A stretch of 64,000 nucleotides of DNA, taken from positions 51,539 to 115,538 of IMG/VR virus record IMGVR_UViG_3300026078_000021; one strand, 5' to 3'. Position 1 is the stretch's first letter; every line of letters starts with the position of its first letter. Under the pieces are notes generated by a model that was given only the letters and a program-made list of their open reading frames with translations, did not search any database and was not told where the DNA came from. Shown here piece by piece: positions 28,357 to 60,277 of this stretch. Made by a program: the position numbers and the translations under genes. The stretch comes from a virus (taxonomy: Duplodnaviria > Heunggongvirae > Uroviricota > Caudoviricetes).

Positions 28357-29073
28357 TCAGACGTGCGTGAGAACCGCGATTCCGTCCGGTCGGACGTACG
28401 CGTTCCATTCGTTCGGTGGCCAGTCGAATGAGTCGACGCAATCGGCGCAAAGGTTGTCACCTTCCCGCCAGTCGGAAGCCTGGGCGGTAATCCACACGTT
28501 GGCGAACCGGTCGCAGTTTGCGTCGTATGTTCCGGGGGTGAATACCTGCCCGTAACGGCCACAGTTCGCGCACAGTGTGTCGGTTGCGCCGTTGTGTGGA
28601 CAGGGCCCGTAGTGACCGTGGCATGCGTAGTGGCGCGCGTCGTTTCCCTGGAGCATTCCCCTTAGTCGCGCGTGATCTAGTTCGCGTGTGAGCGCGTCTG
28701 CGAGTGTGCGCGTGCGGACGGAAATACTGGGCCGTTCGTATGCGTGAACCTTGCTCCTATCGCGTCCCAACCGGTCGTATTCCGGCAGCGTGTAGGTCCG
28801 CGCGGGGATGGTCCAACCGTTCGCGTTGCGCACGGGTGACTCATGCTGTTTGTCGGTGCGCATGTTGGGCACACGGTGCGGTTCTGCGCCGAGTAGCAGA
28901 CCAGCGGCGCGCGCAGTGCGTAGCGCGTACGTGATGCGTTCCGCCAGTTTTTGGGTTGGCACGGTGAACAGTGCGCGTTCCGGTTCCACTGAGTTCAGCA
29001 TGCGGAACACGGTCGGGATGCGGCGGGCCCTGCCCGTGTCGTATGGGGTCCACCATTGGTAAAGGTCAGTCAT
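28357..29073 (-). CDS. hypothetical Cys-rich protein
   Basis: Trimmed to Met 29073 with GGAAACGATCATGA context (MTDLYQWWTPYDTG...). Confidence 0.45.
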   Translation of the reverse strand: MTDLYQWWTPYDTGRARRIPTVFRMLNSVEPERALFTVPTQKLAERITYALRTARAAGLLLGAEPHRVPNMRTDKQHESPVRNANGWTIPARTYTLPEYDRLGRDRSKVHAYERPSISVRTRTLADALTRELDHARLRGMLQGNDARHYACHGHYGPCPHNGATDTLCANCGRYGQVFTPGTYDANCDRFANVWITAQASDWREGDNLCADCVDSFDWPPNEWNAYVRPDGIAVLTHV

Positions 29074-29128
29074 GATCGTTTCCTGCCGGTCGGTGGGGTG
29101 TCCACCAATCATGTCGCTTTGCTCCACC

Positions 29129-29139
29129 GTGTCAAGCCT
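29129..29139 (-). promoter_or_regulatory. conserved promoter motif AGGCTTGACAC (class 1)
   Basis: Third copy of the 22-nt block; upstream of the gene start at 29073. Confidence 0.5.
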
Positions 29140-29750
29140 ATCCGGCAAAGGATCTCCGGACAGTCCACCTGGGCCGGTCGCTACCGGCCCGGATACCGCG
29201 CGCATACCCGCCGGCAGCGCCATACCTTGCCAGCTCACGCGTGCGGGCCCTATTCTCAGACCCTGGAAAGCGCACTCGGCAGGCAATACGCCGGTACTCG
29301 ACCGTTGACATACGGTGCTGAGTGCCAGTGTGTTGACTCGTGCGTGATCTTGGCCCGTGCGCTGATTCTCGCGCGCACGGGCCCGGGGCCACCCCCCCGC
29401 CGGCCCGCCGCGCGCCCGCACGTGGGGGAGAGGATCGGCCAGCCGGCGCGGTCGGGCGCATTGACCATGAAAGCGCTAACGGGCCGCGCACGCCGGCTAC
29501 GAAGGTGACGGCAGTGTGTGAGGCACGGGCGCGACCTCGGCGGGGGATGTGACACGCCGTTGCGCTAGGTGCGGCGGGAGTATCGCGGCACGTTGCCGAT
29601 GTAAGTGCGCGGAGCTGGGCCGGCGCGTGGGGGTGGCACCGGCACGGGCGGGTAAGCGAAAGCGTGCGCAGCGGTTCGGCCGGAGTGAACTAATAGCGTT
29701 TGTTCTTGTTAGCGTTTAGCGTTTCCTTCACAGCCGCGCGGTGTAATAGC

Positions 29751-29850
29751 TTTTTACCTTTCTACCATTATTTAAATAGCGAGCGCTAGCGCTAGCGCTA
29801 GGGCCCTTTTTTGGTTTTACTATTGCGCCCGTATGGGGTCCGTATGGGGG
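29751..29850. repeat. ~85-bp AT-rich element with an (AGCGCT)x3 palindrome + GGGCCC + T-run; copy 1 of 2
   Basis: atagctttttacct...aaatagcgagcgctagcgctagcgctagggcccttttttgg...attgcgcccgtatgg. About 90% identical to the copy at 38326-38406. Sharply AT-rich in a 70%-GC context. Could act as a bidirectional terminator-like hairpin. Confidence 0.65.
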
Positions 29851-29911
29851 TTCGCCCCCGGAAACGCCAGCGCCCCCGACCGGTGATGGTCGGGGGCGCT
29901 GCGTTGGACGG

Positions 29912-31579
29912 TCAGGCCATGCCGGCGTACCTCATCGGCATGTACTGCTCGGCGACCCTGCTTCGGCTCGTCTCGTCGTTGTCGGCAACCACCCACATGG
30001 GGGTGTCACGTGTGCCGGGCAACGGCAGCCCGATCAGGCATGTGTGCGTGGCGCCTAGCTCGCCGCGCTCCCACACCCCGCCGTCGTTGTCCACAAGCCG
30101 GGTGCCAGGGCACAGGTCGAACAGGTCGGCTACGTCGGTGAGGGGCTGGACGATGGCGGGGAACGTGATCTCGGTGCCGTCGGTAATCTCGTCGTTGTTC
30201 TCCGGGGCCGCGCCGCCGTCGGTCATGACGGTGCGGAACTCATATCCGGCGGCGTCTTTCAGCGTGAGGCCGGCTTGAAGCTCGCTCAGCTCCTCCATGC
30301 TGCCCACCTGTACGGCGGCGTCCTGCGTGAACAGGCCGGGGGTGATGATGGGGCGCGGTACCGTGTCGGTGCCGGGCGTGTGCAGCACGGCGTACGGGCC
30401 GCGTTCGGTGATCTCTGTCGGGTTGAGGCAGCGCCGGCCCGTGCCCGCTCGCCGTTCGGTGCACAGGGCGGGCTGTCCTTCGTGGGTGGTGCGCGTGAGG
30501 GCGCGCCCGTTGCGGTCGGCGAGGATAGTGCCGACGGGTAGTGCCCAGAGCTGTTGCGGGGTGGTCACCGTGTCGGTGGTGGGCGCGGTGGACAGCGGTG
30601 GCCTGTCTTCGCTCCACGGGCTGCGCTGGGGCTCGGTCAGGAGCGGCGCGCAGACGAGCGGCGTCAAGGGGAACGCGTCGCCCAGCGCAAGGTCATTGGC
30701 ACTGGCCGCGTGATGACCGTTGGTGCAGTACGCGCGCGTCTCGTCGTGCTCACGGCGGATGATCCACACTTCGCCGCGCCGGTCGAGCATCGCCTGGCCG
30801 TGCGGCTGCTGCCAGAACTGGCCCATGCTCGTGATGAGCGTGGCCGGGTCCGGACGGTCGGCGGTGGCTTGGCCGGGCAGGTAGATCGGGCGGAACGCGC
30901 CGGTACGCGGCGAGCCGTGGGGGCGGTAGGTGTGCAGGGTTCCGACGCATTCGAGCATGGGGCCGCGCATGTCGTCGCGCCGTAGCCACGCGTCGCCGCT
31001 GTGGTCGAGGAACACACTGCCGGGCGGGTACGCCCACAGGTCGGCCCATCCGATCGCCCTGTCCCCGGGTGTGGCGGGCAGTGAGACGACGGTGAGCGGG
31101 TCGGGTAACGGCTCCTGCGGGTCGTGCGGGGTGTACTCGTTGGCGGTGAGGGCGAGCCAGTTCATGGATTCGTGTCCCGCGAACGTCGAGGCAGCGGCGG
31201 GGATGCGCACGAGCGCGCGGCAGGCCCCGTTCACCAGTTGCCAGTCCGGGCGCACAACCCAGAACAGGGTTTCGGTCGGATCGCGCAGTACCGTCCAGTT
31301 CGGCAGGGCGGCGGCCTGGCCGAAAGTTTCGACGGTGATGGAGCGGGGCGCGCCGGCGGGTTCGTGGATGGTGACGAGCGGGTATTCTCCGGGGTCGAGT
31401 TCATCGAACATGGGGTCGCCCCACAGTGCGCCGCCTGATTCGGCGGCGAGCATGCGCATGGACAGCGCGGGTTTCGCGTCGGGGCCGGTGGTGCGCTTGT
31501 AGATCGCGCCGTCGGGGCTGGCGACGATGGTTCCGGGGGGCAGGGCGAAGAGTTCACTGGCGTTGTTGATCGTTTTCAT
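29912..31579 (-). CDS. hypothetical protein with five ~60-aa internal tandem repeats (LxxLPxGTxxxDxxGxxWxR)
   Basis: RBS AAAGG before ATG 31579. Repeats include ASELFALPPGTIVASPDGAIYKRT, QQLWALPVGTILADRNGRALTRTT and VADLFDLCPGTRLVDNDGGVWERG. Confidence 0.5.
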   Translation of the reverse strand: MKTINNASELFALPPGTIVASPDGAIYKRTTGPDAKPALSMRMLAAESGGALWGDPMFDELDPGEYPLVTIHEPAGAPRSITVETFGQAAALPNWTVLRDPTETLFWVVRPDWQLVNGACRALVRIPAAASTFAGHESMNWLALTANEYTPHDPQEPLPDPLTVVSLPATPGDRAIGWADLWAYPPGSVFLDHSGDAWLRRDDMRGPMLECVGTLHTYRPHGSPRTGAFRPIYLPGQATADRPDPATLITSMGQFWQQPHGQAMLDRRGEVWIIRREHDETRAYCTNGHHAASANDLALGDAFPLTPLVCAPLLTEPQRSPWSEDRPPLSTAPTTDTVTTPQQLWALPVGTILADRNGRALTRTTHEGQPALCTERRAGTGRRCLNPTEITERGPYAVLHTPGTDTVPRPIITPGLFTQDAAVQVGSMEELSELQAGLTLKDAAGYEFRTVMTDGGAAPENNDEITDGTEITFPAIVQPLTDVADLFDLCPGTRLVDNDGGVWERGELGATHTCLIGLPLPGTRDTPMWVVADNDETSRSRVAEQYMPMRYAGMA

Positions 31580-31926
31580 GATTGTGCCTTTCGGGTGCGG
31601 CGGCGGGGTTCGGTGTTTTGGGGTGGGGCCAGTTCGGGCCAGGCGGCGCGGACTTGGCGGATGCACCAGGTTTTGCGGTCTGGGTAGCCGCTGGGTTTCT
31701 GGGTTGGTTTGCCGTCGGCGACGGCGGGCCGGCCGTGGCAGCGCAACGCGGTGCGTATCAGGGTGCGTACGGTGTTGCCGTCGAGTGGTTGGCGTGAGCG
31801 CAGGATGAAATCGAGGTTCGTCGGCGGGTAGGTGAAGTGCAAGCCGTCCCACAGCAGCGCCGCTAGTTCCAGCTCGGTCATTTTCGGGTAGACGACGGTG
31901 ACATCTACGGTGGTGGGCGGCTCCAC
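31576..31926 (-). CDS. hypothetical protein
   Basis: 116 aa; ATGA overlap with the downstream gene. Confidence 0.4.
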   Translation of the reverse strand: MEPPTTVDVTVVYPKMTELELAALLWDGLHFTYPPTNLDFILRSRQPLDGNTVRTLIRTALRCHGRPAVADGKPTQKPSGYPDRKTWCIRQVRAAWPELAPPQNTEPRRRTRKAQS

Positions 31927-31935
31927 GGGGGTGTC

Positions 31936-32562
31936 CTAGCCGGGGATTCTGCTGAGGGCGTGCTCCGCTTGGAGTGCGGCGCGGGCGGCTTCGTGCGCGG
32001 CTTGGTCGGCGTGCCGGGTGGCCAGGTCGGCGAGTTTCGCGTAGTCCTCGGGTCTGTCGTCGGTTTGTAGGTGTGTGAGGGTACGGAACGCGTCGTATGC
32101 GGCGGCGGCGAAAACGGCGAGCTGTTCGGCGTCATGGGCGCGGGTGTGGGCGCTGGTCACGGGTGCAAGCGCGTCGTCTCGCTCTGCCGGGGCCAGTTTG
32201 CTCACGCGTTGCGCTGCGCTGCTCAGGTGGTGTGTTGCGGTGCGTAGAGCGGCGCGGGCCTGGTCGCAGTACTGCGTTGCGCAGGGCGGGAAACGCGGGT
32301 CATGGGGGTAGGTGCCGAACGGGCCGTAGGGTAATGCGCGGTCGGGTGGGGCGATGGCCAGGAGTACGGCATCCGCTCGGGGCCGGTGGACGGGTTCGAG
32401 GGATGCGCCCATGCCGGCGCCTTTTCTGAGCCACTGGTCGCCGTTGGCGTCGATGAGCCGGGTTCCGGGTGCGACGGCGCGAGCTTCGCTGTAGGTGCTG
32501 ACCACTGTGGGGTCCTTTCGCGAGTTGCGGCGGGCGTGTCGGCCTCTGATGGCGGCGGTCAT
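31936..32562 (-). CDS. hypothetical protein
   Basis: 208 aa. Confidence 0.4.
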   Translation of the reverse strand: MTAAIRGRHARRNSRKDPTVVSTYSEARAVAPGTRLIDANGDQWLRKGAGMGASLEPVHRPRADAVLLAIAPPDRALPYGPFGTYPHDPRFPPCATQYCDQARAALRTATHHLSSAAQRVSKLAPAERDDALAPVTSAHTRAHDAEQLAVFAAAAYDAFRTLTHLQTDDRPEDYAKLADLATRHADQAAHEAARAALQAEHALSRIPG

Positions 32563-33086
32563 GTGTTGGTAGCGGTGTCAGGGGCGGGTGGGCGTACCAT
32601 GTCGTTGATCGCTACCGCCCACGCGCAGTGGGTGACGACCGTGAGGTAATGGGTGCCGGGGGAGTTGTGCACGTACGTGGTTGCGGTCTCGCCGGTGCGG
32701 GTGGTGTAGGCGAGGGTTGCGCCGTCGCCGGGGCCGCCGTGTTCGGTGATGCGTAGCGCCTCGCCGGTGGGACACGTGTAGGTGTAGGTGAGTGACCAGT
32801 CGCCGTCGGTGGTGAAATCCGGGGTTTGGCCGTTGCTGTTGCCGTGCCAGGTGTTCGGTGCGCCGGTGGTAATCCCCGGGGGTGTTAGCGCGGTGTGGGG
32901 GGTGGTGACTTTGTAGATTCCGAGTACGGCGAGTATGGCGGCGGACGCGATGGCGGTAACGGTGAGGCGCCTGCGTCGGCGGGTTTGTGCTGCTTCTGCT
33001 CTCGATTCGGTCACGGTGTCCCTCGTGTTGTCGTGGTCTGATTCCCGGGAGGCCCGTACCACCTGTCTGCTACGCCACCGGCTCAT
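32559..33086 (-). CDS. membrane-anchored or secreted hypothetical protein
   Basis: TM segment (LTVTAIASAAILAVLGIY) after a basic N-terminus. Confidence 0.4.
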   Translation of the reverse strand: MSRWRSRQVVRASRESDHDNTRDTVTESRAEAAQTRRRRRLTVTAIASAAILAVLGIYKVTTPHTALTPPGITTGAPNTWHGNSNGQTPDFTTDGDWSLTYTYTCPTGEALRITEHGGPGDGATLAYTTRTGETATTYVHNSPGTHYLTVVTHCAWAVAINDMVRPPAPDTATNT

Positions 33087-33177
33087 GTCCGTCGCCGCTA
33101 TGTTCGCGGGTTCGACTTCACCGGTTCTCGTCCAGGCAGCTTTGGCGGTACGGGGGTCTCAGGGCGTCAGGCCGGGG

Positions 33178-33663
33178 TTACTCGCTGCCCTTGTAGCCGG
33201 TGGCCCAGGCGAGGAGCGTGGCGAGGTTGACGGCGTAGTGCGCGTCGCCTTGCATGAGGATGACGTGTAGTTCGGTTCGGATGCCGTAGCCGGGGTTGGG
33301 CCAGTGGCCGGCGTTGTCGAACGCGGTGCCCGCGACGATGGCGGTTACGTCCTGCTCGTCGGGCTCGTGCCAGTTGTCCCGGACACCGAACTGCCGGGCG
33401 ATCTTGATCAGGTGGGCGCGGTCGGTGATGCGCAGGGGTTCCCCGCTGGGCTGCGGGCCGGTGGAGATGGTGTGGGCGCTGGAGCGGACGGTGACCGTCT
33501 CGTCACACCGGAAGACGTCCACGAACAGTCGCCCGTCTTCGGTGGTGGCCAGGGTGAGCAGGCCGCCGCCGTTGGGGGAGTCGAACTCGAAGCGGGCTTC
33601 GTTCGCGGGGGCGTCGTTAGCGGTCTGGTGACGCTTGATGGTGGGGCGCTGGTATCGGGGCAT
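33178..33663 (-). CDS. hypothetical protein (paralog of 33697..34314)
   Basis: Shared segments NWHEPDEQD...AVNLATLLAWAT versus DWHEPDEPDE...AVNVADLLNWAT. Confidence 0.45.
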   Translation of the reverse strand: MPRYQRPTIKRHQTANDAPANEARFEFDSPNGGGLLTLATTEDGRLFVDVFRCDETVTVRSSAHTISTGPQPSGEPLRITDRAHLIKIARQFGVRDNWHEPDEQDVTAIVAGTAFDNAGHWPNPGYGIRTELHVILMQGDAHYAVNLATLLAWATGYKGSE

Positions 33664-33696
33664 GGCGTGTCCTTCCGGGCTCGGTGGGCGGGGCGG

Positions 33697-34314
33697 TCAG
33701 CGAGCGCCGGGGGCCGGGATCGCCCCGAACCTCGCCTCTAGGGTCTGTACGAGTCGGCTGGCGATCTCGTGGGCGGTGTCGGCGTCGGCGGCGGTGCGCC
33801 AGTCGGCGGCGAGTTGCCACAGTTCGCTCAGCGCGGGGGCGGGGCTGGTTGCCCAGTTCAGCAGGTCGGCGACGTTGACGGCCCAGTCGCCGTCGGGTTT
33901 GCCGGTGTCGGCGTCGCGGCGGTGCAGGGTGATGACGTATTCGCGGCCGTGCGTGCCGCATGCGTTGTCGAGGTGGTTGCCGCTGATGGTGGCGCTGATG
34001 CCGCGCTCGTCGGGTTCGTCGGGTTCGTGCCAGTCGCCGGCCTGAAGGTCCCTCGCGATGGCGGTCAGGTCGTCGCGGGACCACACGGGGTGGGGTTCGC
34101 CGGGCACGCGCAGGGGGCGGGCGCGCTCGGGGTTATGGCGGATCTCGACGTTTCCCTCGGTGCCGGTGACGTCGATGACGAGGGTTTCATCGTTGTCGCG
34201 GTCGGTGAGGGTCAGCAGGGTGTTGCCGTAGTTGCCTTCGGCTTTGAACTGGTGCAGGTGGGGCTGTGGGGCGTTGGAGGGGTTGTGCGGGTAGATCGCG
34301 GGGGCGATGCGCAT
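33697..34314 (-). CDS. hypothetical protein (paralog of 33178..33663)
   Basis: See the paralog entry. Confidence 0.45.
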   Translation of the reverse strand: MRIAPAIYPHNPSNAPQPHLHQFKAEGNYGNTLLTLTDRDNDETLVIDVTGTEGNVEIRHNPERARPLRVPGEPHPVWSRDDLTAIARDLQAGDWHEPDEPDERGISATISGNHLDNACGTHGREYVITLHRRDADTGKPDGDWAVNVADLLNWATSPAPALSELWQLAADWRTAADADTAHEIASRLVQTLEARFGAIPAPGAR

Positions 34315-34422
34315 GTGTGGGGCTCCGTTTCGGTGCGGGTGGCGGGCCCCGGTGTACTTCCGGTGTGGCCGGTGACGCGGCCGGGGCTTGCGACACAGCT
34401 AACTCTATCGCATCACTCAATC

Positions 34423-34433
34423 GTGTCAAGCCT
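34423..34433 (-). promoter_or_regulatory. promoter motif AGGCTTGACAC (class 1)
   Basis: caatcgtgtcaagcctgt; upstream of the gene start at 34314. Confidence 0.45.
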
Positions 34434-34443
34434 GTTGGGGTAG

Positions 34444-35544
34444 TTAGGCAGGCTTCGAAGTGCGCCAGTTCTCCAACAGCGCAGACCCGAGCGGGGTCAA
34501 CCGTGCCCGGCCCTCGTCCCCCGCCGTCACCCACCCGTTACGGGGAAGCGATTGCAACGTCTGCATACTCGGACGGTCACCCACCACCTCACCCACCGTC
34601 AGAAACACCCCGGCAGGGCTCAGGCGCACGTCGTTGCGCTCCACCCAGTCCAACGCGGCGTTTTGCCGCTCGCTGGCCTTCGTGCCCACAGCCCTTGGCG
34701 ACACCGCCGGTGTCGGCTCCGGTGCCACCGGCTCAGGCAGGGGCTCAGGCAGGGGCTCAGGCGCCGGAGCCGGTGCCGGCTGCTCGGCGACCACCGGCGC
34801 GGGCGCCAACACCGACGCCACCGCGTCCGCGTCCACCTCACCGAGCCCGATCCGCATGCGCAGCAGGGGCCCGGCCTTACGCCGCCAACCGCGCCCGGCC
34901 AGGTGCCGGGCGGTCGCGATAGCCGCCAGGCGCGTACGCTCCCGCGCCAACGCGCGCGGGTATGAGTTAACCTGCCACAGCACCATGCGGCGAAAGAGTA
35001 GGAACGTCGGCAGCGGGGAGAGCAGCCAGCGCCCGAGAGGGATCGGCTGGCGGCGCGTGTTGCCGCTCAACCCGACGTGCGTGCGCACCACGTGCCGCAT
35101 CAGCTCCACGAACACGACCCAGATCGCGGGCATCAGCACGTGCGCGACCTTGCCCGCCGGGTCGTGGCCGGCGGTGTAGTTGAGGTAGATGGTGCCGCCG
35201 GTCGCGCCGTACACGACCCACCGCGCGAGCGGGTGTGACATGTCCATTCTGGCCAGGATCAGGTCCACGCCGGAGAACACGAACACGGTCAGGTCAACCA
35301 CGATCGGCACCAGCAACGCCCACGCGCCGAACGCGGGGATCATCTCGTCGCGCACTGACCGAAACGACAGGGCCATACCGCCCAGGCCGATGAGCGCGGC
35401 CATGACGCCGATGATCACGGCCAGCGTGATCCATCCGGCGCTGAGGCGGTTCGCCGTCGGCTCCGGGTCGGCGGGCGGTGGTGGCGGGCGGTGGTGGCCG
35501 TTGGCGTGGGTTATCACCATCGGATCGAGCGTTGTCGTAGTCAT
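34444..35544 (-). CDS. integral membrane protein (4-5 TM helices) with a Pro/Ala-rich linker
   Basis: 366 aa; hydrophobic N-terminal half; a PEPLPEPLPEP repeat. Confidence 0.45.
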   Translation of the reverse strand: MTTTTLDPMVITHANGHHRPPPPPADPEPTANRLSAGWITLAVIIGVMAALIGLGGMALSFRSVRDEMIPAFGAWALLVPIVVDLTVFVFSGVDLILARMDMSHPLARWVVYGATGGTIYLNYTAGHDPAGKVAHVLMPAIWVVFVELMRHVVRTHVGLSGNTRRQPIPLGRWLLSPLPTFLLFRRMVLWQVNSYPRALARERTRLAAIATARHLAGRGWRRKAGPLLRMRIGLGEVDADAVASVLAPAPVVAEQPAPAPAPEPLPEPLPEPVAPEPTPAVSPRAVGTKASERQNAALDWVERNDVRLSPAGVFLTVGEVVGDRPSMQTLQSLPRNGWVTAGDEGRARLTPLGSALLENWRTSKPA

Positions 35545-36050
35545 GAGGCGGCCTTTCTAAGGCTCCAGGGGGTGGGCTGCTCGTTGTGGGTGGCCGGGGA
35601 CTCCAGGACGAGCCCGTGAGTGGTCACGTGCGGCTCGTAGCGGCCGAATTGCACGATGCCGGGGAACTGGCGGTCGACCCATAGCCGCGCGAGTTTGAGT
35701 GAGCGAAACACCGTGATCTGCTCCGGCTGCTCGGCGTGGTGCACCAGTAGCAGCCCGGCCGCCGGCGGGACGTCCAGCGCCGGCGCTACGGGGCCCGTCG
35801 CGATGATCATGCCGCTGATGATCTGCGGGGCGGGCACGGCGTAGTGTCGCTCACCGGAGGGGAACTCGTCGTCGAGGCGCGCGCTGGTGGCGGGCACGTC
35901 GACCAGCACGAAGTGATCGCCGTACCCGGCTGCCTGGCCGCCCGGCCGTGTGGTGAAGTACACGCTGCGGTCGTTCTCCCGGCTGATGAAACTTCCGGTA
36001 TGTCTGATCGCGGCGGCCTCGAATCTTTCGCACAGGTGCCAAAGCAGCAT
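35541..36050 (-). CDS. hypothetical protein
   Basis: 169 aa. Confidence 0.4.
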   Translation of the reverse strand: MLLWHLCERFEAAAIRHTGSFISRENDRSVYFTTRPGGQAAGYGDHFVLVDVPATSARLDDEFPSGERHYAVPAPQIISGMIIATGPVAPALDVPPAAGLLLVHHAEQPEQITVFRSLKLARLWVDRQFPGIVQFGRYEPHVTTHGLVLESPATHNEQPTPWSLRKAAS

Positions 36051-36197
36051 GGCGGGGCCCTTTCCCGGGTCGGTGGTGGGGTTCGTGCCAGGTGGCGTGT
36101 CCGGGAATCGAACCCGGTTCCCCTCGCATGCGGGCGGGGGTGTCTCCTGTCCAGGAATACGAACACGCCGGGGGCGGCCCGCCGGGGCCGCCGGGGG

Positions 36198-36797
36198 TCA
36201 GTCGTGGTAGGAGCGTTCGCCGGCGCGGTAGTAGCCGGTGTTGTTGAGCGGTGTGAGCGGCATGTGCAGGAAGCTGTCGGTCGGGTGCGGGACCGACATG
36301 CGGTATTCGGTGAACTTGCGGCCGGTCTCGTCCTCGCTCTCGACGCGCGCGAATGTGATCACGAACGCGCCGCGCGGGTCGTCGATGCTGATGGAGAAAC
36401 GCACCTCGTCCTGGCTGGCGTCGGTGGCCAGGCTGGCGGAGTTGACCCAGCCGAGCGGCGCAACGGTGGCGACGTGCGGGGCGGGCTTGTCCTCGCCGTT
36501 GAGTTCGCAACCGCCCTCGCCGTCCTCGTCGGTGGGGGTGTCGCAGTCCTCGCCGCACACGTGCGACTGGCCGTAGTTCTCGTTCTGGGGGCAACCAGAG
36601 GTGTCGTCTTTGTGGACGCCTTCGGCGTTTGTGCTGGCGCCGCATGCGGCGCACTGGTAGACGGTGGTGCCGTCGGTGAAGCTGACGTCGATGTCGATCT
36701 CTCCGGCGGCGTCGATGGCGTTCGATGAGACCTCGCTGGGGTCGATTTCCGCGAGGGCGACGTCGTTGATCTTGACGTCGGCGGCCACGTAGGTCAT
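36198..36797 (-). CDS. hypothetical acidic Cys-containing protein
   Basis: 199 aa. Confidence 0.4.
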   Translation of the reverse strand: MTYVAADVKINDVALAEIDPSEVSSNAIDAAGEIDIDVSFTDGTTVYQCAACGASTNAEGVHKDDTSGCPQNENYGQSHVCGEDCDTPTDEDGEGGCELNGEDKPAPHVATVAPLGWVNSASLATDASQDEVRFSISIDDPRGAFVITFARVESEDETGRKFTEYRMSVPHPTDSFLHMPLTPLNNTGYYRAGERSYHD

Positions 36798-37246
36798 GGG
36801 GTGTGCTCCGTTCGGTTGGGGTTGTTGACGGCAACATTAGTCCCCGCACTCAACTGTGTCAAGCCTGTAGAGTGGTCAGGGTCTAATACCGCCCCGACCT
36901 CGCCCGTAAGCTGTGCCACCGCCGGCGCGAGCCACCCCCGCACGCACTGAACCGTCATCGCTAGCGCCGCTTCCCCGAACTGATCCGCCAGCGAACGGGC
37001 CGGATCGTACGGCACGGCGAACCGCGACACCCGCGCGAACGTGAACTCAGTGAACGAATACACCGGCAACAGGTGAAGATCCACCCGGGGGTCACCCGAA
37101 GGCCACACCCATTCGGTGTCCACCTGCCACCGGTCGCTGTCATCGCCCACGAACCGCGCGTCTCCCGCCGGCCGGGCCGTCAACAGGTAACGCAGGTCCG
37201 CAAAGCTGCTCTCCAGCCACATACGCTCCAACACGGCGTGAAGCAT
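36794..37246 (-). CDS. hypothetical protein
   Basis: 150 aa. Confidence 0.4.
   Translation of the reverse strand: MLHAVLERMWLESSFADLRYLLTARPAGDARFVGDDSDRWQVDTEWVWPSGDPRVDLHLLPVYSFTEFTFARVSRFAVPYDPARSLADQFGEAALAMTVQCVRGWLAPAVAQLTGEVGAVLDPDHSTGLTQLSAGTNVAVNNPNRTEHTP
36856..36866 (-). promoter_or_regulatory. promoter motif AGGCTTGACAC (class 1)
   Basis: caactgtgtcaagcctgtag; upstream of the gene start at 36797. Confidence 0.45.
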
Positions 37247-37253
37247 CGCGGGG

Positions 37254-37802
37254 CTACTTGCCGGTAGTGAAGTCGACGCCGAACGCCTTCGGGCCGTAGT
37301 TGTCGACCAGGGCCTGACGGTGCTCGGCGCAGTTCAGCGAGCCGTCGGCGGCCGGCTTCTCGCAGTACTGGACGCTACCGGGGCCGCCGTAGACGGTCTG
37401 ATAGCTGCACTTGCCAGCGCGTACCAAGTCGCATTCATAGTCGTTGGCGAACCGCTCGGCGTTGCGGTTCATGAACGCGATGCGCTCCAGGCGCGGCCCG
37501 TCGCATTCGATGACCTCGCCGCCGGGCTCGGTGCAGTAGCCGACGACGCGTAGCGGGTGGTCGGCGGGGAAGGAGATCACGTCATCCTCGCCGCTGGTGG
37601 CGACGTGGAGCAGCACGGCGCCGGGCGCTCGGTAGGGTAGCTCGTCGTTCTCCAGCGGCAGGACGTAGGCGTACTCGTAGGTGTACAGGCCGCCGTCGGG
37701 GTCGTCTTTGTTGGCGGCGTAGGGGTCACCCCCCAGGTCGAGCACGAGCCCGGCGCGGATCTCGCGGGCGGGCAGGGTGAAGGCGGCGGGTTCGGTGGTC
37801 AT
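37254..37802 (-). CDS. hypothetical protein
   Basis: Trimmed to Met 37802 (MTTEPAAFTLPAREIRAG...). Confidence 0.45.
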   Translation of the reverse strand: MTTEPAAFTLPAREIRAGLVLDLGGDPYAANKDDPDGGLYTYEYAYVLPLENDELPYRAPGAVLLHVATSGEDDVISFPADHPLRVVGYCTEPGGEVIECDGPRLERIAFMNRNAERFANDYECDLVRAGKCSYQTVYGGPGSVQYCEKPAADGSLNCAEHRQALVDNYGPKAFGVDFTTGK

Positions 37803-37860
37803 GGTTGCGGTTCCTTCCGTGTGCCGTAGGATAGGTCCAACATTACTCCCGTACTCCATC

Positions 37861-37871
37861 GTGTCAAGCCT
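37861..37871 (-). promoter_or_regulatory. promoter motif AGGCTTGACAC (class 1)
   Basis: ccatcgtgtcaagcctctag; upstream of the gene start at 37802. Confidence 0.45.
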
Positions 37872-37911
37872 CTAGAGGGAGGCGGCCGACACGCCGACCA
37901 GGGGAACCGCC

Positions 37912-38325
37912 ATGGCAGAGCAAGACAACGCCCGTACATCGGCGAGCGAGCGAGCGCTGCCCGACCTCCCTGCGCCGGCGCGCGCCGGCACCGCTCAGGC
38001 ACCCGGCCGAGCCGGCGGGGAGATCGCCGCGCCCGCGACCAGGAAAGCGCTGCGTGACCTGGGCCCCGAGCAGCACGGGCGGCCCGTCGGCGGCGACCGG
38101 GACGGGCAGTGGGCCAAGCGCCGCTGCCAGGAAAGCCAAGGCCCCGCCGGGCCGACCCCCGAACCGCCGAACTGGAGCAACTGCATGCTCAACAGGGCGA
38201 TAGGGCCCAATGGTGGGCCGGTGCACATCCCGCCGGGCTGGCGCTGCCCGCTCTCCCCGTGCTGTGGCATGGGAAGCCTGATGGGTGTCCTGGAAGCCGT
38301 CGCGGGGGAAACCCGGCCCCAATAA
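37912..38325 (+). CDS. hypothetical protein (one of the few plus-strand genes)
   Basis: 137 aa; stop lies immediately before the AT-rich palindromic element. Confidence 0.35.
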   Translation: MAEQDNARTSASERALPDLPAPARAGTAQAPGRAGGEIAAPATRKALRDLGPEQHGRPVGGDRDGQWAKRRCQESQGPAGPTPEPPNWSNCMLNRAIGPNGGPVHIPPGWRCPLSPCCGMGSLMGVLEAVAGETRPQ

Positions 38326-38406
38326 ATAGCTTTTTACCTGGCTATTAATAGCGAGCGCTAGCGCTAGCGCTAGGGCCCTTTTTGATTTCAATATTGCGCC
38401 CGTATG
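38326..38406. repeat. ~85-bp AT-rich (AGCGCT)x3 palindromic element; copy 2 of 2
   Basis: aataaatagctttttacctggctattaatagcgagcgctagcgctagcgctagggccctttttgatttcaatattgcgcccgtatgg. Confidence 0.65.
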
Positions 38407-38427
38407 GCGTGTGCGCGGCGCGGCGCG

Positions 38428-38838
38428 CTACGAACGCGGCGGTGTGCTCACGAACTCCCCGTGCTGCTCGCAGAGCCCGATCACGCGCCCCTGGGTGCGC
38501 ACGATGCGCGAGGCGGGCGCCGTGCACGGGTACCAGGGCTTAACCGGGCACTGCACCAAGTCTGCGAACTGGCACGCGAGCCGTCTGCTGTGATCCAGGC
38601 TGCTCGCCCACAGCCGCATACGCGCCGGCCAGGTGGCCCCGGCGACCTCGGCGACCTTCGCGAGCGTGAAGAACGGCACGGTGAGCGGCCAGGTGACGCA
38701 CGCGAGCACGAGGCCGACGATGACAGCGGGCGTGGGCGTACCGGGGCCCGGTGCCCGGAGGGCGAGGTACACGGCGCGGGCCGTGAGCACGAGGGCGGTG
38801 GATGCCTCGCCGATGAGGTAGAGCGCTGCGACCGGCAT
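38428..38838 (-). CDS. hypothetical membrane protein
   Basis: 136 aa with two hydrophobic helices. Confidence 0.35.
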   Translation of the reverse strand: MPVAALYLIGEASTALVLTARAVYLALRAPGPGTPTPAVIVGLVLACVTWPLTVPFFTLAKVAEVAGATWPARMRLWASSLDHSRRLACQFADLVQCPVKPWYPCTAPASRIVRTQGRVIGLCEQHGEFVSTPPRS

Positions 38839-38896
38839 GCCGCCACCCTAGCCGAACAGCGTGGCGCGCGGGCATAAACACCCCAAGGCGCCCCCC

Positions 38897-39874
38897 TTAG
38901 CCGAGCGCCGCCGCGACCAGGTGCGCCGGGTCGCGCTCCAGGCGGCGCGCGGCCCGCTGGTAGCGGCGGGTGGTGCGCGGGTCGGCGTGTCCCATCGCGT
39001 CCTGTAGATCGTCGAGATCCGCGCCGCGCTCGGTCGCGATCGTGGCGAAGGTGTGGCGCAGCGCGTGCGGGGTCACGGCGGTGGGGTCGGGCAGCCCGGC
39101 CTCCTGTGCGAGGCGGCGCACGAGGCGGAACACCTCGCTTCGGTCGACGGCCTTGCCGCCGGAGGTGACGAACACCAGCCCTGTCAGGTCCTTGACACGT
39201 ACCCCGGCTTGTTTGGCGCGCGCCTTGAGGTACACGTCCAGTACGGTGCCGGTAGCGACGGGCACGGCGCGGGCGATCCTTTTGCCGCCCTTGCCGCGTA
39301 CGGTGACGGTGCGCATGCCCTTGGCGGTGCTGAATGCGTCGAGCGGGAGTTTGCACACCTCGCTGACTCGAATGCCCAGTTGCAGCATGAGGCGGACCAT
39401 GACGGCGTCGCGTAGGGCGTTGGGGGTTTCGCGCTGGTCGGCGTGCTCGATCAGGCGGCGGGCGGATGCCTCGTCGAGCCACGCGGTGGGGGAGTAGTCC
39501 CGGTCGACCTTGGGGCGTTGCGCGGCGGCGAACGGGTTGCGCTCGTGCTCGTCGCAGGCGATCAGGTGCCGGTACCAGGAGGAGACCGCCGCCATGCGCC
39601 GCGCGGCGCTGGCCTCGGACAGGGGCCGGGGGTTTGCGCGGGAGTCTTGGAGCCAGGCGCCGAACAGGTCGGCGTCGGGTTTGCGCGCGGTCAGCACGTG
39701 CACGCCGCGCTCGGCGCAGAACGCGCCCCAGGCGCGCAGGTCGCGGGCGTAGGCCTCGCGGGTGTTGGGGCGTTTGGTCAGCAGCCACGCGGCGGTGGCT
39801 TCGGCGATGGGGTCTTGGTCGCGGGTGTCGTAGGGGTGCAGGGCGGTGTTAGTGGTGGCGATGGTGGTGTTCAT
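38897..39874 (-). CDS. int: tyrosine-type site-specific recombinase/integrase (XerC/D-like)
   Basis: R...HxxR...Y catalytic residues: 'ALRDAVMVRLMLQLGIRVSE', 'HALRHTFAT', 'GHADPRTTRRY'. Confidence 0.85.
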   Translation of the reverse strand: MNTTIATTNTALHPYDTRDQDPIAEATAAWLLTKRPNTREAYARDLRAWGAFCAERGVHVLTARKPDADLFGAWLQDSRANPRPLSEASAARRMAAVSSWYRHLIACDEHERNPFAAAQRPKVDRDYSPTAWLDEASARRLIEHADQRETPNALRDAVMVRLMLQLGIRVSEVCKLPLDAFSTAKGMRTVTVRGKGGKRIARAVPVATGTVLDVYLKARAKQAGVRVKDLTGLVFVTSGGKAVDRSEVFRLVRRLAQEAGLPDPTAVTPHALRHTFATIATERGADLDDLQDAMGHADPRTTRRYQRAARRLERDPAHLVAAALG

Positions 39875-41712: not shown

Positions 41713-43377
41713 TCACCCGTCCGCGCGCGCCTCCCAGGGCCAGCCGCAGGAGACACCCCGGTCCAGCAACGCCATGACCTGGAAACACTTGTCCGAGAAA
41801 CCGCCCAGCTCGAAGCGGCCCGTACGCGTGGAATCGATCTGCGTGTTCGCGTAGCCGGCCGTGTTCCAGGCGAACAGGTTGATGCCCGTCGGCACGATAT
41901 CCGAGAGGGTCTGGTTGTTGGACGCCGCGCGCCCCCACACCGCCGGGTAGTACGCCCACGAGCCCCTGCGCGCCGCCATCGTCTGCATGTCGGAGACGAC
42001 CACGATGCGGCGCAGCGGCGCACCCGAGCCCGTGTCCGGCGCGGCCTTCAGGACGGCGGCGACCGCCTCCAAAGCCTGCGTGCCGTGCCCGACCTCGCCG
42101 ACGCGGGCGCAGAACGCCTCCGTCTGCTTCAGGACACTGCCTCCCGCCGCCAGCTGGTGGTGGAAGAGGCCGTCGGCGAACCCGCACAGTGTCACATCGT
42201 TGCCCGCCGCCGCCAGCGCCACACCGAACAGCGCGCCGACGTCCACGTGCCGCACCACCGACTTACCCGACACCGGCTGCTGCATGGACGCGGAGGTGTC
42301 CACCAGGATCGCGGTGCGCCCCGGCAGCGATGGGATGTTCACGCAGGACAGGCGCAGCGCGATCTCCAGGGCGTGACCCCAGCGCAGAGAGGAGACCTGC
42401 CGGTACGCGGTGTAGAAACGGAACGGGAACTGGCGGGAGCGGCGGATGTCCTCCAGGTTTGTCAGCTTCGCGATCACCCGCTGCGCGGCGGCGTCGCTGA
42501 CCCCGGCCTCATCGAAATTACGCAGGTTACGCACCAGCGCCATCGCGCCCATCGACGGGATGATCGCCTCCCACGCCGCCTTGTCCATCGGGCCGAGACT
42601 GGAGAGCTGCTCCCAGGTCATGCCGGCCTTACGCAGCCGCTCTGGGTCGGCCAGGAAATAGGCGCGCCGGTCCTTCTCAGACATAACCATCGCGGCGCGG
42701 TACGCGCTCAGGGTCGGCAGGCGGTCCGTGACGCGCACCTGCTCGCGGTTCCAGCGCCGGTCGGCCAGGTAGTCGAACAGGTCGGCCTGCCACGGCCCGG
42801 CCGGGTACGGCTTAGCGAGGGCGACGGCGTCGATCTGCCGCCACAGCGAACCCACGCCGTCGTACTTGAGGGCGGCGCGCTCGTTGTACAGGCGGGTGAT
42901 CGCGTCGGCGACGCCGCGCTGCACCCCGCCGGGCAGCGAGCGGATGCCGGCGCGCGAACGCCAGTAGGCGATGAACTCGCACGGCTCGTCCGGGCGCGCC
43001 AGCGCGGAGTCGATCACCTTGCGGGTGGGGTGCGTCGCGGGCGCGGCGCCGGGCGCGCGGCGCGCCAGGGCGTATTCGGCTGCCGCGACGACGGACGCGG
43101 AGCGCATCCCGGCCTCGGTGCGCAGCCAGGGAATGAAAGCGGCCACCCAGTCCGGGTCGGTGCGCGCGACCGCACCGATCAGGCCACGGAAGCGCTGGTC
43201 GCGCTCGCCGGCCTTCTCGTAGAAGCTGTCCTCGCCGACCATGTTGGAGATGGCGAGCATGAACAGCTCGGAGCGCTCATCGCGCTTGTATGCCGTGTTG
43301 CCCTCATGGGTGAGGGCGGGGCCGGTGGTGGTGACCGGTCCGGTCACGCGCGGGCGAACGGAGGTGAACTTACCCAT
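41713..43377 (-). CDS. rsr: Ro60 orthologue (Rsr): TROVE domain plus C-terminal vWA/MIDAS domain
   Basis: 554 aa. TROVE-like N-terminal region and 'ILVDTSASM' (DxSxS MIDAS) in the C-terminal vWA domain. tRNA-like Y-RNA-type modules are immediately adjacent. Confidence 0.75.
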   Translation of the reverse strand: MGKFTSVRPRVTGPVTTTGPALTHEGNTAYKRDERSELFMLAISNMVGEDSFYEKAGERDQRFRGLIGAVARTDPDWVAAFIPWLRTEAGMRSASVVAAAEYALARRAPGAAPATHPTRKVIDSALARPDEPCEFIAYWRSRAGIRSLPGGVQRGVADAITRLYNERAALKYDGVGSLWRQIDAVALAKPYPAGPWQADLFDYLADRRWNREQVRVTDRLPTLSAYRAAMVMSEKDRRAYFLADPERLRKAGMTWEQLSSLGPMDKAAWEAIIPSMGAMALVRNLRNFDEAGVSDAAAQRVIAKLTNLEDIRRSRQFPFRFYTAYRQVSSLRWGHALEIALRLSCVNIPSLPGRTAILVDTSASMQQPVSGKSVVRHVDVGALFGVALAAAGNDVTLCGFADGLFHHQLAAGGSVLKQTEAFCARVGEVGHGTQALEAVAAVLKAAPDTGSGAPLRRIVVVSDMQTMAARRGSWAYYPAVWGRAASNNQTLSDIVPTGINLFAWNTAGYANTQIDSTRTGRFELGGFSDKCFQVMALLDRGVSCGWPWEARADG

Positions 43378-43399: not shown

Positions 43400-43540
43400 A
43401 CGATGGACGGGCCGACCCCGGTGCGCCTTCACGCGAGTGCCCATCGTCCTGGCTACGCTGCTCTACCGTTGAGCTACACGGCCGCGTGGCCGCGCATGGA
43501 TTCGAACCATGAACCAGCCGATTAACAGTCGGAAGTAGGC
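43400..43540 (-). ncRNA. Y-RNA-like ncRNA 1 (tRNA-like module at 43459-43533; retains a GUU anticodon stem-loop)
   Basis: Layout is D-arm (GCUCAACGGUAGAGC), acceptor 5' strand GGCCGUG, 4-nt loop, acceptor 3' strand CGCGGCC, T-arm CAUGG-UUCGAAU-CCAUG. The two halves of a tRNA-Asn-like sequence are permuted and the acceptor stem is closed by a loop. Confidence 0.5.
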
Positions 43541-43559
43541 CAGGGCTGCGCTTCGCGTG

Positions 43560-43700
43560 AAGGCGCTGTGGAGTTGTGCACAGGTTGGTTCGCGAGTGCC
43601 TAGGCGCGTAGGACACGTAGGCGCTCTATCCACTGAGCTACAAGGGCCACGTCGGGCCCCCGGCGGGATTCGAACCCGCGACCTCCCGCTCCCAAAGCGA
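43560..43700 (-). ncRNA. Y-RNA-like ncRNA 2 (tRNA-like module 43621-43679)
   Basis: D-arm GCUCAGUGGAUAGAGC, acceptor GCCCUUG/CGGGGGC closed by an 8-nt loop, T-arm GCGGG-UUCGAAU-CCCGC. Confidence 0.45.
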
Positions 43701-43759
43701 AGTAACCCACGCTATCGCTTCGCGAACCAACCTGTGTTCGGCCCGGCCGCGAGGCGACC

Positions 43760-43900: not shown

Positions 43901-44033
43901 CCAGCGCTTCGCCGATCCATCACTATGCGGTTGTCAGGGTGCTGCGAGTGCCTGGTCACGGGGGTTTGGGCTCTCAATTCCCAAAGGATGGCTGAGAAGT
44001 ATCCCCCGCGTTCGCTTCGCGGCACCGCTCAAC

Positions 44034-60265: not shown

Positions 60266-60277
60266 ATGCGGGATGCG

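What the first reader, a model, noticed from the sequence alone, without database searches (positions are those of the whole stretch)
29751..38406. An ~85-bp AT-rich palindromic direct repeat brackets an 8.5-kb gene module beside the integrase
Two ~90%-identical copies (29751-29850 and 38326-38406) each carry an (AGCGCT)x3 palindrome, a GGGCCC palindrome, a T-run and AT-rich flanks. They delimit a block of 12 genes: the tandem-repeat protein, paralog pairs, a membrane protein and others. The second copy lies ~500 bp from the tyrosine integrase gene. Each could be a bidirectional terminator, a recombination target for the XerC/D-like recombinase, or the ends of a mobile cassette.
Basis: seen in the sequence. 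Interest (0 to 1): 0.55.

Follow-up and report, generated by a model that had tools for sequence, protein, structure and literature searches.

The report
Paired conserved control sites flanking phage module
The two ~90-bp repeats are real, and the same pair brackets the same gene block in three of four related uncultivated soil phage lineages (the fourth is seen only on a short contig), which points to sequence-specific protein-docking sites at the head of two promoter regions rather than plain terminators or the ends of a hopping cassette; what binds them is still unknown.

Summary
The copies lie at 29745-29845 and 38325-38407, in direct orientation, and there are only two in the 64-kb window.

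I found seven copies in four phage lineages whose proteins are only 52-72% identical. In this phage and two relatives, a pair brackets the syntenic DUF2637 module downstream of a Xer-like recombinase gene.

On the gene strand every copy has the same fixed geometry:
- B1, ATACGGGSGCRAT.
- B2, 33 nt further: the 26-nt near-palindrome TAGCGCTAGCGYTARCGCTCGCTATT.
- B3, 8-9 nt further (16 in copy 1): GGTRAA.
- B4, AGCGCTTTY, at +312 to +333.
- A sigma70-like promoter at +505 to +665.

B2 is identical in 5 of 7 copies and shows no compensatory change. Copies far from the recombinase carry extra B1 and B3 iterons. The GGGCCC palindrome, the T-run orientation and the AT-richness are not conserved.

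I read this as a protein-binding control or insulator site that heads two promoter regions. In this genome it also sits where a terminator between convergent genes would lie.

A mobile cassette is not supported: there are no empty sites or deletion junctions. Recombination by the neighbouring recombinase is not excluded (about 0.2). No binding protein was identified.

The parts
29748..29845 (-). Copy 1 (distal copy), core B1..B3 read on the gene strand. It has two B1 iterons: 29845-29835 (ATACGGACCCC) and 29834-29822 (ATACGGGCGCAAT). A 20-nt A-tract spacer follows, then B2 at 29800-29775 (TAGCGCTAGCGCTAGCGCTCGCTATT) and B3 at 29758-29748 (GGTAAAAAGCT).
38328..38405 (-). Copy 2 (proximal copy), core B1..B3. 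B1 is at 38405-38393, followed by a 19-nt A-tract spacer, B2 at 38372-38347 and B3 at 38338-38328. It lies between convergent stop codons at 38323-38325 (+) and 38428-38430 (-).
29469..29477 (-). B4 motif AGCGCTTTC, 323 nt downstream of the start of B2 in copy 1.
   Evidence: Exact AGCGCTTTY occurs only 3 times in the window on both strands; two of those are the B4 sites.
38043..38051 (-). B4 motif AGCGCTTTC, 321 nt downstream of the start of B2 in copy 2. It lies inside the plus-strand ORF, at the residues TRKAL.
29108..29135 (-). Sigma70-like promoter (TTGACA-16-CATGAT) of the post-module operon, 665 nt from B2 of copy 1. The first gene is 28357-29073.
37840..37867 (-). Sigma70-like promoter (TTGACA-16-TAATGT) of the first module gene (37254-37802), 505 nt from B2 of copy 2.
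37912..38325 (+). Probable 137-aa gene on the opposite strand to its neighbours, filling the spacer after copy 2. Its stop codon abuts B3.
   Evidence: The frame is open in two lineages. GC3 is about 0.9. A homologous 170-aa ORF occupies the same place in L131: 41% identity with a conserved Cys-rich C-terminus, E 1.6e-14 against 1.8 billion proteins. The synonymous excess is only modest.
29866..29899 (-). 12-bp G+C-rich hairpin directly after the stop of the 555-aa gene. It is the likely terminator of the module's last gene and lies upstream of copy 1. A second small hairpin, GGGGGCGAACCCCC, is at 29848-29861.
   Evidence: (sequence read directly)
29912..37802 (-). The bracketed module: 11 minus-strand genes, including DUF2637 (34444-35544). 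It has at least three internal promoters (37867, 36862, 34429).
38428..39874 (-). Xer-like tyrosine recombinase gene (38897-39874) and a 136-aa membrane/Cys-rich ORF (38428-38838), immediately upstream of copy 2.
29683..29732 (-). Extra AT-rich stretch just downstream of copy 1 with three CGCTAA/CGCTATT boxes. It is found only in this copy.

Best explanation
Each repeat is the upstream anchor of a roughly 0.6-kb cis-acting control region that precedes an operon promoter. One region heads the DUF2637 module and the other heads the block after it.

Proposed mechanism:
- A sequence-specific DNA-binding protein, not yet identified, with half-site TAGCGCT occupies the 26-nt B2 near-palindrome and the single B4 half-site about 320 bp downstream.
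- The B1 and B3 iterons bind the same or an auxiliary protein. B1 sits 33 nt before B2 across an A/T tract that may bend the DNA, and it is repeated at 10-11 or 20-24 nt in the distal copies.
- Together these sites build a fixed-geometry nucleoprotein complex.
- The complex insulates the downstream sigma70-type promoter from read-through and most likely silences or gates it by looping.

In this particular genome the palindrome plus T-run also serves as the intrinsic terminator of the convergent plus-strand gene at copy 2.

Shown directly: the motifs, their invariance, their geometry, their pairing and their link to the downstream promoter. Inferred: protein binding, looping, and whether the effect is repression or activation.
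For: - There are seven copies in four lineages: the window, L120, L132 and L131. Recombinase identity is 58-72% and DUF2637 identity 52-64%.
- All copies share B1, B2 and B3 at fixed spacing: B1 to B2 is 33 nt in 6 of 7 copies and 34 in one; B2 to B3 is 8-9 nt in 6 of 7.
- B2 is identical in 5 of 7 copies. Its only changes are two single substitutions near its centre, and there is no covariation. That is the signature of sequence recognition, not of a hairpin.
- B4 lies at +312 to +333 in all seven copies, while exact AGCGCTTTY occurs only 3 times in the whole window.
- A sigma70-like -35 box follows at +505 to +665, and at 562-582 in five of the copies.
- By contrast, the distance to the upstream stop codon varies from about 7 nt (cG) to about 750 nt (cF). 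The unit therefore belongs with the downstream promoter.
- Distal copies consistently carry extra iterons: 2-5 B1 in all three, and 3 B3 in the two relatives cB and cF but only one in copy 1.
- Other promoters of the same family in the window lack the element, so it is a special control site and not the promoter itself.
- No Rfam family matches.
Against: - No candidate binding protein was identified. Neither a conserved HTH gene nor a ParB/KorB-like gene lies next to the element.
- Operators acting from about 570 bp upstream are unusual in bacteria and phages.
- There are no expression data.
- The promoter calls are consensus matches only.
- About 40 kb of the 114-kb genome could not be read, so the copy number per genome is a lower bound.
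- That the proximal copy sits near a recombinase gene in 3 of 4 lineages is not explained by this model.
Confidence: 0.45

Rival explanations
1. The two copies are res/lox/cer-like recombination sites for the neighbouring Xer-like tyrosine recombinase. B2 would be the core site and B1, B3 and B4 the accessory sites. Recombination between the direct repeats would excise the DUF2637 module as a circle, re-insert it, or resolve multimers.
For: - The proximal copy starts within about 20 nt of the operon that ends with the recombinase gene in the window, L120 and L132.
- The recombinase is a small Xer-type enzyme without an arm-binding domain: best PDB match XerD at E 1e-21, NCBIfam XerC/XerD models at E 1e-44 to 1e-46.
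- B2 has the size of a Xer/Cre core (26-28 bp), with inverted outer TAGCG/CGCTA and variation confined to its centre.
- Phased accessory iterons and directly repeated, complex sites recall res sites and the Tn4430 internal resolution site (IRS) (from my own knowledge).
Against: - No deletion junction or module-less genome was seen among 5-6 strain-level contigs or in the metagenome scan.
- In L120 the two copies differ at two central B2 positions. That would block strand exchange if the overlap region lies there.
- In the L021/L022/L131 lineage several genes (at least about 3 kb) separate the recombinase gene from the element.
- B1 and B3 do not resemble the B2 half-sites.
- The whole unit keeps a fixed distance to the downstream promoter, which recombination does not require.
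Confidence: 0.2
2. The repeats are plain intrinsic (bidirectional) terminators that punctuate transcription units. Their similarity would reflect duplication only.
For: - A hairpin followed by a T-run is flagged on the plus strand in both window copies and in L132 cF.
- Each copy lies downstream of a gene end.
- Copy 2 sits exactly between convergent stop codons.
- In cB the one stem substitution is a G-U pair on the antisense RNA.
Against: - Folding energies are no better than those of shuffled sequences: z of -0.6 to +0.05.
- The T-run is not directly adjacent to the stem in cA and cB, and it lies on the other strand in cE.
- B2 is conserved in sequence with no compensatory pairs.
- B1, B3 and B4 and their spacing are conserved over lineages where the neighbouring proteins are 52-72% identical.
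- Copy 1 already has a separate strong hairpin after the upstream stop codon.
Confidence: 0.1
3. The repeats are iteron-type replication or partition sites: a pair of origins like SPP1 oriL/oriR or P4 ori/crr, or centromeres flanking a locus.
For: - B1 is an iterated motif at 10-11 or 20-24 nt spacing, with variable copy number, an A/T tract and low local G+C in the window.
- Two related cis sites lie several kb apart.
Against: - There is no copy near the replication genes just beyond the window's right end (the DnaA/IstB-like block in L044).
- No ParA, ParB, Rep or initiator domain was found in or beside the module.
- AT-richness is lost in the relatives, where the element is 50-57% G+C.
Confidence: 0.1
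4. The repeats are attL and attR of an 8.5-kb element, or the ends of a cassette that inserted into the phage.
For: - Direct repeats bracket a discrete block.
- DUF2637 homologs are abundant in Actinospica and Actinocrinis genomes. My recollection that the domain is typical of actinomycete plasmids and integrative elements was not checked.
Against: - The recombinase gene lies outside the repeats.
- The same bracketed, syntenic module is present in this phage and two relatives, with no empty site observed.
- Both repeats are full composite sites rather than hybrid halves.
- The proximal/distal differences are conserved across lineages.
Confidence: 0.05
5. The element and the spacer after it encode, or control, a structured non-coding RNA.
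For: - A long spacer of 450-610 nt follows each copy. It shows no recognisable gene in five copies and a probable opposite-strand gene in copy 2 and in cG.
- Some spacers fold slightly better than shuffled sequences, with z down to -3.1.
- A roughly 140-nt block upstream of the proximal promoter is 85-90% identical between L120 and L132.
Against: - There is no consistent z-score: the range is +0.6 to -3.1.
- Beyond the palindrome, the alignment folds give only weak helices: 2-5 pairs show a double change, most also have broken pairs, and the covariation term is near zero or unfavourable.
- No Rfam match was found.
- Spacer sequences are not conserved between the two copies of one genome.
Confidence: 0.05

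Closest known systems
Accessory-site recombination sites of small tyrosine recombinases (Xer at cer/psi; the TnpI internal resolution site, IRS, of Tn4430/Tn5401). Recalled from my own knowledge, not tested here.
   Same: Both are composite sites of about 90-190 bp, with a palindromic core and phased direct repeats beside it. Both lie next to a small Xer-like recombinase gene that lacks an arm-binding domain, and both act as direct repeats.
   Different: There is no evidence of recombination here. Two copies sit in one monomeric genome and are stably kept. The accessory motifs are unlike the core half-sites and lie on both sides of the core. The core centres differ between the two copies in L120. 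The unit also includes a motif at +320 and a promoter at about +570.
Dispersed phage operator repeats (phiC31 conserved inverted repeats; stoperators of L5-type mycobacteriophages). Recalled from my own knowledge.
   Same: Both are short, highly conserved intergenic protein-binding motifs in actinophages, placed at the boundaries of transcription units and oriented with respect to transcription.
   Different: Those systems have roughly 18-35 simple sites per genome, close to or inside transcription units. Here there are only two large composite sites, each hundreds of bp upstream of a promoter.
KorB/ParB-type operators acting at a distance (RK2 operator site OB, TTTAGCSGCTAAA). Recalled from my own knowledge.
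   Same: Both have palindromic TAGC/GCTA half-sites, and both lie hundreds of bp from the promoter they would control.
   Different: No ParB/KorB-like gene was found in the 74 kb for which domain tables were available. B2 lacks the central base and the TTT/AAA flanks. The resemblance is a lead only.
Intrinsic bidirectional terminators
   Same: Both have a perfect palindrome, with a T-run on one strand and an A-run on the other, between convergent genes (copy 2).
   Different: In this element the sequence is conserved, not the structure. The T-run is not conserved in position or strand. Extra motifs sit at fixed distances.
Paired phage replication sites (SPP1 oriL/oriR, P4 ori/crr). Recalled from my own knowledge.
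   Same: Both are two similar iteron-bearing cis sites several kb apart in one phage genome.
   Different: No initiator gene lies nearby, and no copy lies next to the replication genes.

Membership tests
Intrinsic (Rho-independent) terminator | A stable G+C-rich stem-loop immediately followed by a U-tract on the transcribed strand | tested here: inconclusive
   The feature is met on the plus strand of both window copies and of L132 cF. It is not met in cA and cB, where the U-tract lies 6-8 nt away, or in cE, where the tract is on the other strand. Folding is no better than for shuffled sequences.
Intrinsic (Rho-independent) terminator | Structure, not sequence, is what is conserved (compensatory changes are tolerated) | tested here: not met
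   B2 is identical in 5 of 7 copies across four lineages and shows no compensatory pair.
Tyrosine-recombinase core site (dif/lox type) | Two inverted binding arms of about 11-13 bp around a 6-8 bp central region | tested here: inconclusive
   B2 is a 26-nt near-palindrome with outer TAGCG/CGCTA arms and variable central positions 13 and 16. However, the two symmetry centres do not coincide, and no similarity to dif arms was found by eye.
Tyrosine-recombinase core site (dif/lox type) | Partner sites share an identical central (overlap) region | tested here: inconclusive
   The central regions are identical in the window and in L132. They differ at two central positions between cA and cB of L120.
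Tyrosine-recombinase core site (dif/lox type) | Recombination products exist (a deletion junction or an excised circle) | tested here: not met
   All 5-6 strain-level contigs keep the module and both copies. The metagenome scan found only an intact copy 2. Read-level data could not be searched.
attL/attR of an integrated mobile element | The integrase is encoded inside the element, and empty sites exist in relatives | tested here: not met
   The recombinase gene lies outside the repeats. The module and both repeats are present in the window, L120 and L132, and no empty site was found.
Iteron origin or partition centromere | An adjacent initiator or ParA/ParB genes, with iterons also near the replication module | tested here: not met
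   No such domains were found in or beside the module. No copy lies in the replication-gene region L044.
Dispersed operator/stoperator repeats | Many copies per genome, close to promoters or within transcription units | tested here: not met
   Only two copies occur in 74 kb of the 114-kb genome. They lie 505-665 nt from the next promoter.
Any Rfam RNA family | A covariance-model match | tested here: not met
   Nothing was found at the gathering threshold. At E<=1, only chance-level hits appeared in the element and its spacers.

The most novel reading that the evidence does not exclude
The pair are res/lox-like targets of the neighbouring Xer-like recombinase. The DUF2637 module would then be a conserved segment of the phage chromosome that can be excised and re-inserted. 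That would make it a phage-borne counterpart of plasmid pdif modules or of developmentally excised elements, kept for tens of percent of protein divergence.
Probability: 0.2. Interest if true: 0.75.

Novelty: new variant of a known kind. Interest (0 to 1): 0.5.

Why it matters
If the reading is right, this is a new multi-part cis-regulatory or architectural site in a group of large (~115 kb), tRNA-rich, uncultivated actinophages. Their hosts are probably Actinospica/Actinocrinis-like bacteria.

The 26-nt word has been held invariant while the surrounding proteins diverged to 50-70% identity. It always occurs with the same partners at the same distances. That gives a precise, synthesisable bait for finding an unknown DNA-binding protein, and a defined test of long-range promoter control or module excision in high-G+C phages.

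It also shows that the features that caught the eye in one genome (AT-richness, GGGCCC, the T-run) are lineage-specific decoration, not the functional core.

Tried and rejected
- **Close relatives among cultured phages and plasmids:** none (megablast of three window segments). A distant blastn of the element gave only noise.
- **Exact-pattern scans for the core.**
  - GTDB genomes: 0 hits for two patterns.
  - IMG/VR: only the L120 contig.
  - JGI metagenomes: only a strain-level fragment, L042.
  - (AGCGCT)3 alone occurs in 16 unrelated viral contigs, partly inside genes, and is not diagnostic.
- **Promoter inside the element:** I could not find a consistent sigma70-like -35/-10 pair on either strand across copies by eye, and the scan found none.
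- **RNA structure:** single-sequence folds, alignment folds on both strands and spacer z-scores gave nothing beyond the palindrome.
- **Conserved protein in the spacers:** only the plus-strand ORF after copy 2, and its L131 counterpart, holds up.
- **Function of the module proteins:** Pfam, PHROGs, NCBIfam and PADLOC searches of the module proteins, and PDB sequence searches of two of them, gave only DUF2637.
- **The GntR gene upstream of the recombinase as the binder:** rejected. It has a homolog in L021 and L022, where nothing follows the recombinase gene within 1.8 kb, and tblastn found none in L120, which carries both copies.
- **Relatives found through the recombinase:** most of the 70-75% identical homologs I examined are chromosomal genes of the presumed hosts, with no element nearby.

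Full report
**Context**

The window has about 67% G+C and nearly all its genes are on the minus strand. It carries:
- 31 tRNA genes;
- a Ro60/TROVE gene, an RNB RNase, and a RecT/PD-(D/E)XK pair;
- a tyrosine recombinase gene.

It is part of a ~114-115 kb metagenomic phage-like genome. That genome was assembled independently, in different permutations, from several soil samples (Ga0134126_10000086, Ga0068856_100000039 and two ENA contigs). Cultured phages and plasmids hold no close relatives. Named homologs of its proteins come from Actinospica and Actinocrinis, so the host assignment is an inference.

**The observation**

The two copies are real. Copy 1 spans 29745-29836, with an extra iteron reaching 29845. 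Copy 2 spans 38325-38407. They are in direct orientation and share three perfectly identical blocks (15, 37 and 15 nt), separated by one 8-nt and one 1-nt indel.

Each block occurs only at these two places. Chance expectation is 0.03-0.5 matches and no shuffle reached the observed count. A profile HMM built from four copies finds no third copy in the window or in the 10 kb beyond its right end.

The bracketed block contains 11 minus-strand genes plus one probable plus-strand gene. Only one has a domain, DUF2637. Copy 2 lies 490 nt from the 3' end of the recombinase gene.

**Related genomes**

Strains 98-99% identical to the window (L019, L020, L047, L124, and the mosaic fragment L042) carry both copies, or the one their contig covers, without a single change. 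The identical block around copy 2 is about 800 nt long, so this says little about selection.

The informative cases are three distant lineages:
- **L120** (IMG/VR contig, 119.8 kb; recombinase 59-60% identical, DUF2637 54%). One copy, cA, lies 19 nt after a small ORF that follows the recombinase gene. A second, cB, lies 11.2 kb further on, after a homologous but rearranged DUF2637 module.
- **L132** (ENA farmland contig; recombinase 58%, DUF2637 52%). One copy, cE, starts within about 20 nt of the recombinase stop codon. A second, cF, lies 12.6 kb downstream, just before a 60%-identical homolog of the window's post-module gene 28357-29073.
- **L131** (a contig of the MAG that also gave L022, whose sequence matches L021; DUF2637 64%). 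One copy, cG, lies upstream of the module genes. Here several genes separate it from the recombinase: L021 and L022 show nothing within 1.8 kb after that gene.

The order recombinase, copy, DUF2637 module, copy, next block is therefore ancestral to lineages whose DNA is otherwise unalignable. No genome lacking the module or holding a single hybrid copy was found.

**Anatomy on the gene strand (the window's minus strand)**

The seven copies share the following features:
- **B1**, ATACGGG(C/G)GC(A/G)AT.
- **A fixed spacer** of 19-20 nt with variable sequence, so that B1 starts 33 nt before B2 in six copies and 34 nt in one. It holds an A-tract in six copies and a T-tract in cE.
- **B2**, TAGCGCTAGCG(C/T)TA(G/A)CGCTCGCTATT. 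It is identical in five copies, and each of the other two has a single central substitution.
- **B3**, GGT(A/G)AA.., 8-9 nt after B2 (16 nt in copy 1).
- **B4**, AGCGCTTT(C/T), at +312 to +333 from the start of B2 in every copy. Exact AGCGCTTTY occurs only three times in the whole window.
- **A sigma70-like promoter** at +505 to +665, and at 562-582 in five copies.

The distal copies carry 2-5 B1 iterons spaced 10-11 or 20-24 nt apart. Two of them (cB and cF) also carry three B3 motifs, while copy 1 has only one. All proximal copies (copy 2, cA, cE, cG) have one of each.

By contrast, the distance to the upstream stop codon ranges from about 7 to about 750 nt. GGGCCC occurs only in the window, and local G+C is 44-47% in the window but 50-57% elsewhere. 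The conserved unit is therefore larger than the 85-bp repeat, and it is tied to the downstream promoter region, not to the upstream gene end.

**What it is not**

- **Not the promoter itself.** The window has at least seven promoters of one family (AGGCTTGACACGGTGGAGTG), three of them inside the module. Most have no element upstream.
- **Not a known RNA**. Alignment folding finds nothing firm beyond the palindrome: 2-5 pairs show a double change, but most of those also have broken pairs and the covariation term is negligible.
- **Not merely a terminator.** Single-copy folds are no better than shuffled sequences. The hairpin shows no compensatory change. The adjacent T-run varies from T3 to T6, is not next to the stem in cA and cB, and sits on the opposite strand in cE. 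Copy 1 already has a separate 12-bp G+C-rich hairpin after the upstream stop codon.

A local terminator role in this genome is still likely. The plus-strand ORF 37912-38325 is probably a real gene:
- It is open in two lineages.
- Its GC3 is about 0.9.
- It has a 170-aa homolog in the same position in L131, with a conserved Cys-rich C-terminus.
- That match scores E 1.6e-14 against 1.8 billion proteins.
- The excess of synonymous changes over other frames is only modest.

Its stop codon abuts B3. Copy 2 therefore fills the gap between two convergent stop codons, and the hairpin plus T5-6 reads in the right direction for this gene.

**Best explanation (confidence 0.45)**

Sequence-level invariance, rigid spacing, helically spaced iterons, an A/T tract between B1 and B2 that may bend the DNA, and a second TAGCGCT half-site 320 bp away are the hallmarks of a nucleoprotein assembly site.

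I therefore read each copy as the anchor of a ~0.6-kb control or insulator region heading an operon. An unidentified protein that recognises TAGCGCT would bind B2 and B4, with B1 and B3 recruiting the same or auxiliary factors. The complex would gate the downstream promoter and block read-through. On this view the two copies are headers of two consecutive transcription blocks rather than brackets of one cassette.

Protein binding, looping and the direction of regulation are all inferred. No binding protein was found.

**Rivals**

- **Recombination by the adjacent Xer-like enzyme (0.2)** is the most interesting alternative.
  - For: the enzyme is a small Xer-type recombinase, B2 has the size and the central variability of a core site, and the proximal copy follows the recombinase operon in three lineages.
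  - Against: no recombinant products were seen, the two L120 copies differ at two central positions, adjacency is lost in one lineage, and the fixed link to the promoter is unexplained.
- **Plain terminators (0.1), iteron origin or centromere (0.1), attL/attR of an inserted element (0.05) and a non-coding RNA (0.05)** each fail at least one direct test, set out in the rival and membership tables.

**Novelty and limits**

Nothing like this composite site is in Rfam, in the cultured-phage collection or in the GTDB representative genomes. It belongs to the known general kind of phage cis-acting protein-binding repeats, but with an unusual paired, long-range, fixed-geometry form.

The limits are:
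- There are four lineages and seven copies.
- About 40 kb of the genome could not be read.
- All promoter and terminator calls are consensus matches.
- There are no expression data and no read-level data.

Noticed in passing
window 43457-43914 (-) and 41713-43377 (-): Three tandem sub-threshold matches to the Y RNA-like family YrlA (RF02553; E 1e-6 to 3e-4, 30-38 bits against a gathering score of 69) lie just upstream of a Ro60/TROVE gene. One of them overlaps the 'tRNA-Pro' that ARAGORN called at 43654-43727. This looks like a phage-borne Ro60 plus Y-RNA cluster.
   Followed up: partly
window 1634-6042 and 60192-61899 (-): 31 tRNA genes lie in two arrays and cover most amino acids. The genome is about 114 kb, and different assemblies give different permutations of it, consistent with a circular or terminally redundant genome.
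   Followed up: partly
window minus strand, -35 boxes at 39923, 37867, 36862, 34429, 29135, 27342, 24594: This is a promoter family with an extended conserved motif, AGGCTTGACACGGTGGAGTG, longer than sigma70 recognition needs. It may hold an overlapping operator.
   Followed up: partly
window 38897-39874; loci L023, L024, L127: The phage recombinase is 70-75% identical to a chromosomal tyrosine recombinase. That gene sits in a conserved VIT1-UDG-EamA neighbourhood in Actinospica/Actinocrinis-like contigs with no phage genes around, which suggests capture or domestication in one direction or the other. A 60%-identical homolog in L128 sits in a different chromosomal context.
   Followed up: partly
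window 36195-36792 and 37889-38140; L042: Strain mosaicism. Strains 98-99% identical overall have an unalignable replacement of gene 36198-36797, and a hotspot with a 21-nt indel and 13 substitutions in the plus-strand ORF. L042 is identical over 38150-38950 and then about 25% diverged inside the recombinase gene.
   Followed up: partly
L130 3413-3438; L028 1490 and 3765: Unrelated viral contigs of 48-50% G+C carry B2-like words in what look like upstream regions. L130 has GCGCTAGCGTTAGCGCTCGCTATT about 36 nt before a gene start. L028 has (AGCGCT)3-4 arrays, with AAAGGGCAAGG nearby in both contigs. No proteins are shared with the window. This may be convergent use of a TAGCGCT-binding factor.
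   Followed up: partly
L120 6500-6640 and L132 1180-1310: About 140 nt just upstream of the proximal promoter is 85-90% identical between two lineages whose proteins are 50-60% identical. It is G+T-rich on the gene strand, and the opposite strand has an RBS-like AAAGGAGG followed by GTG.
   Followed up: no
window 18713-20521 (-): The phage encodes an RNase II/R-type (RNB) protein with a double-stranded RNA-binding motif. Together with Ro60, the Y RNAs and the tRNA arrays, this points to heavy investment in RNA metabolism.
   Followed up: no
whole window: CTAG is strongly under-represented: 56 observed against 191 expected from base composition. Each element contains three CTAGs, so B2 is built from words the genome otherwise avoids.
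   Followed up: no
window 21255-21401 and 21575-21622: A 147-nt AT-rich non-coding stretch lies at the point where GC skew changes sign. It is unrelated in sequence to the repeat and may mark another major punctuation of the genome.
   Followed up: no
window 53-58 kb and L044 1-9900: The phage encodes HU, Lsr2 and GerE/LuxR-type proteins inside the window. Beyond the right end lies a divergent block with a GntR regulator, a DnaA/IstB-like loader and WhiB. These are candidate architectural or regulatory partners for AT-rich or specific sites.
   Followed up: no
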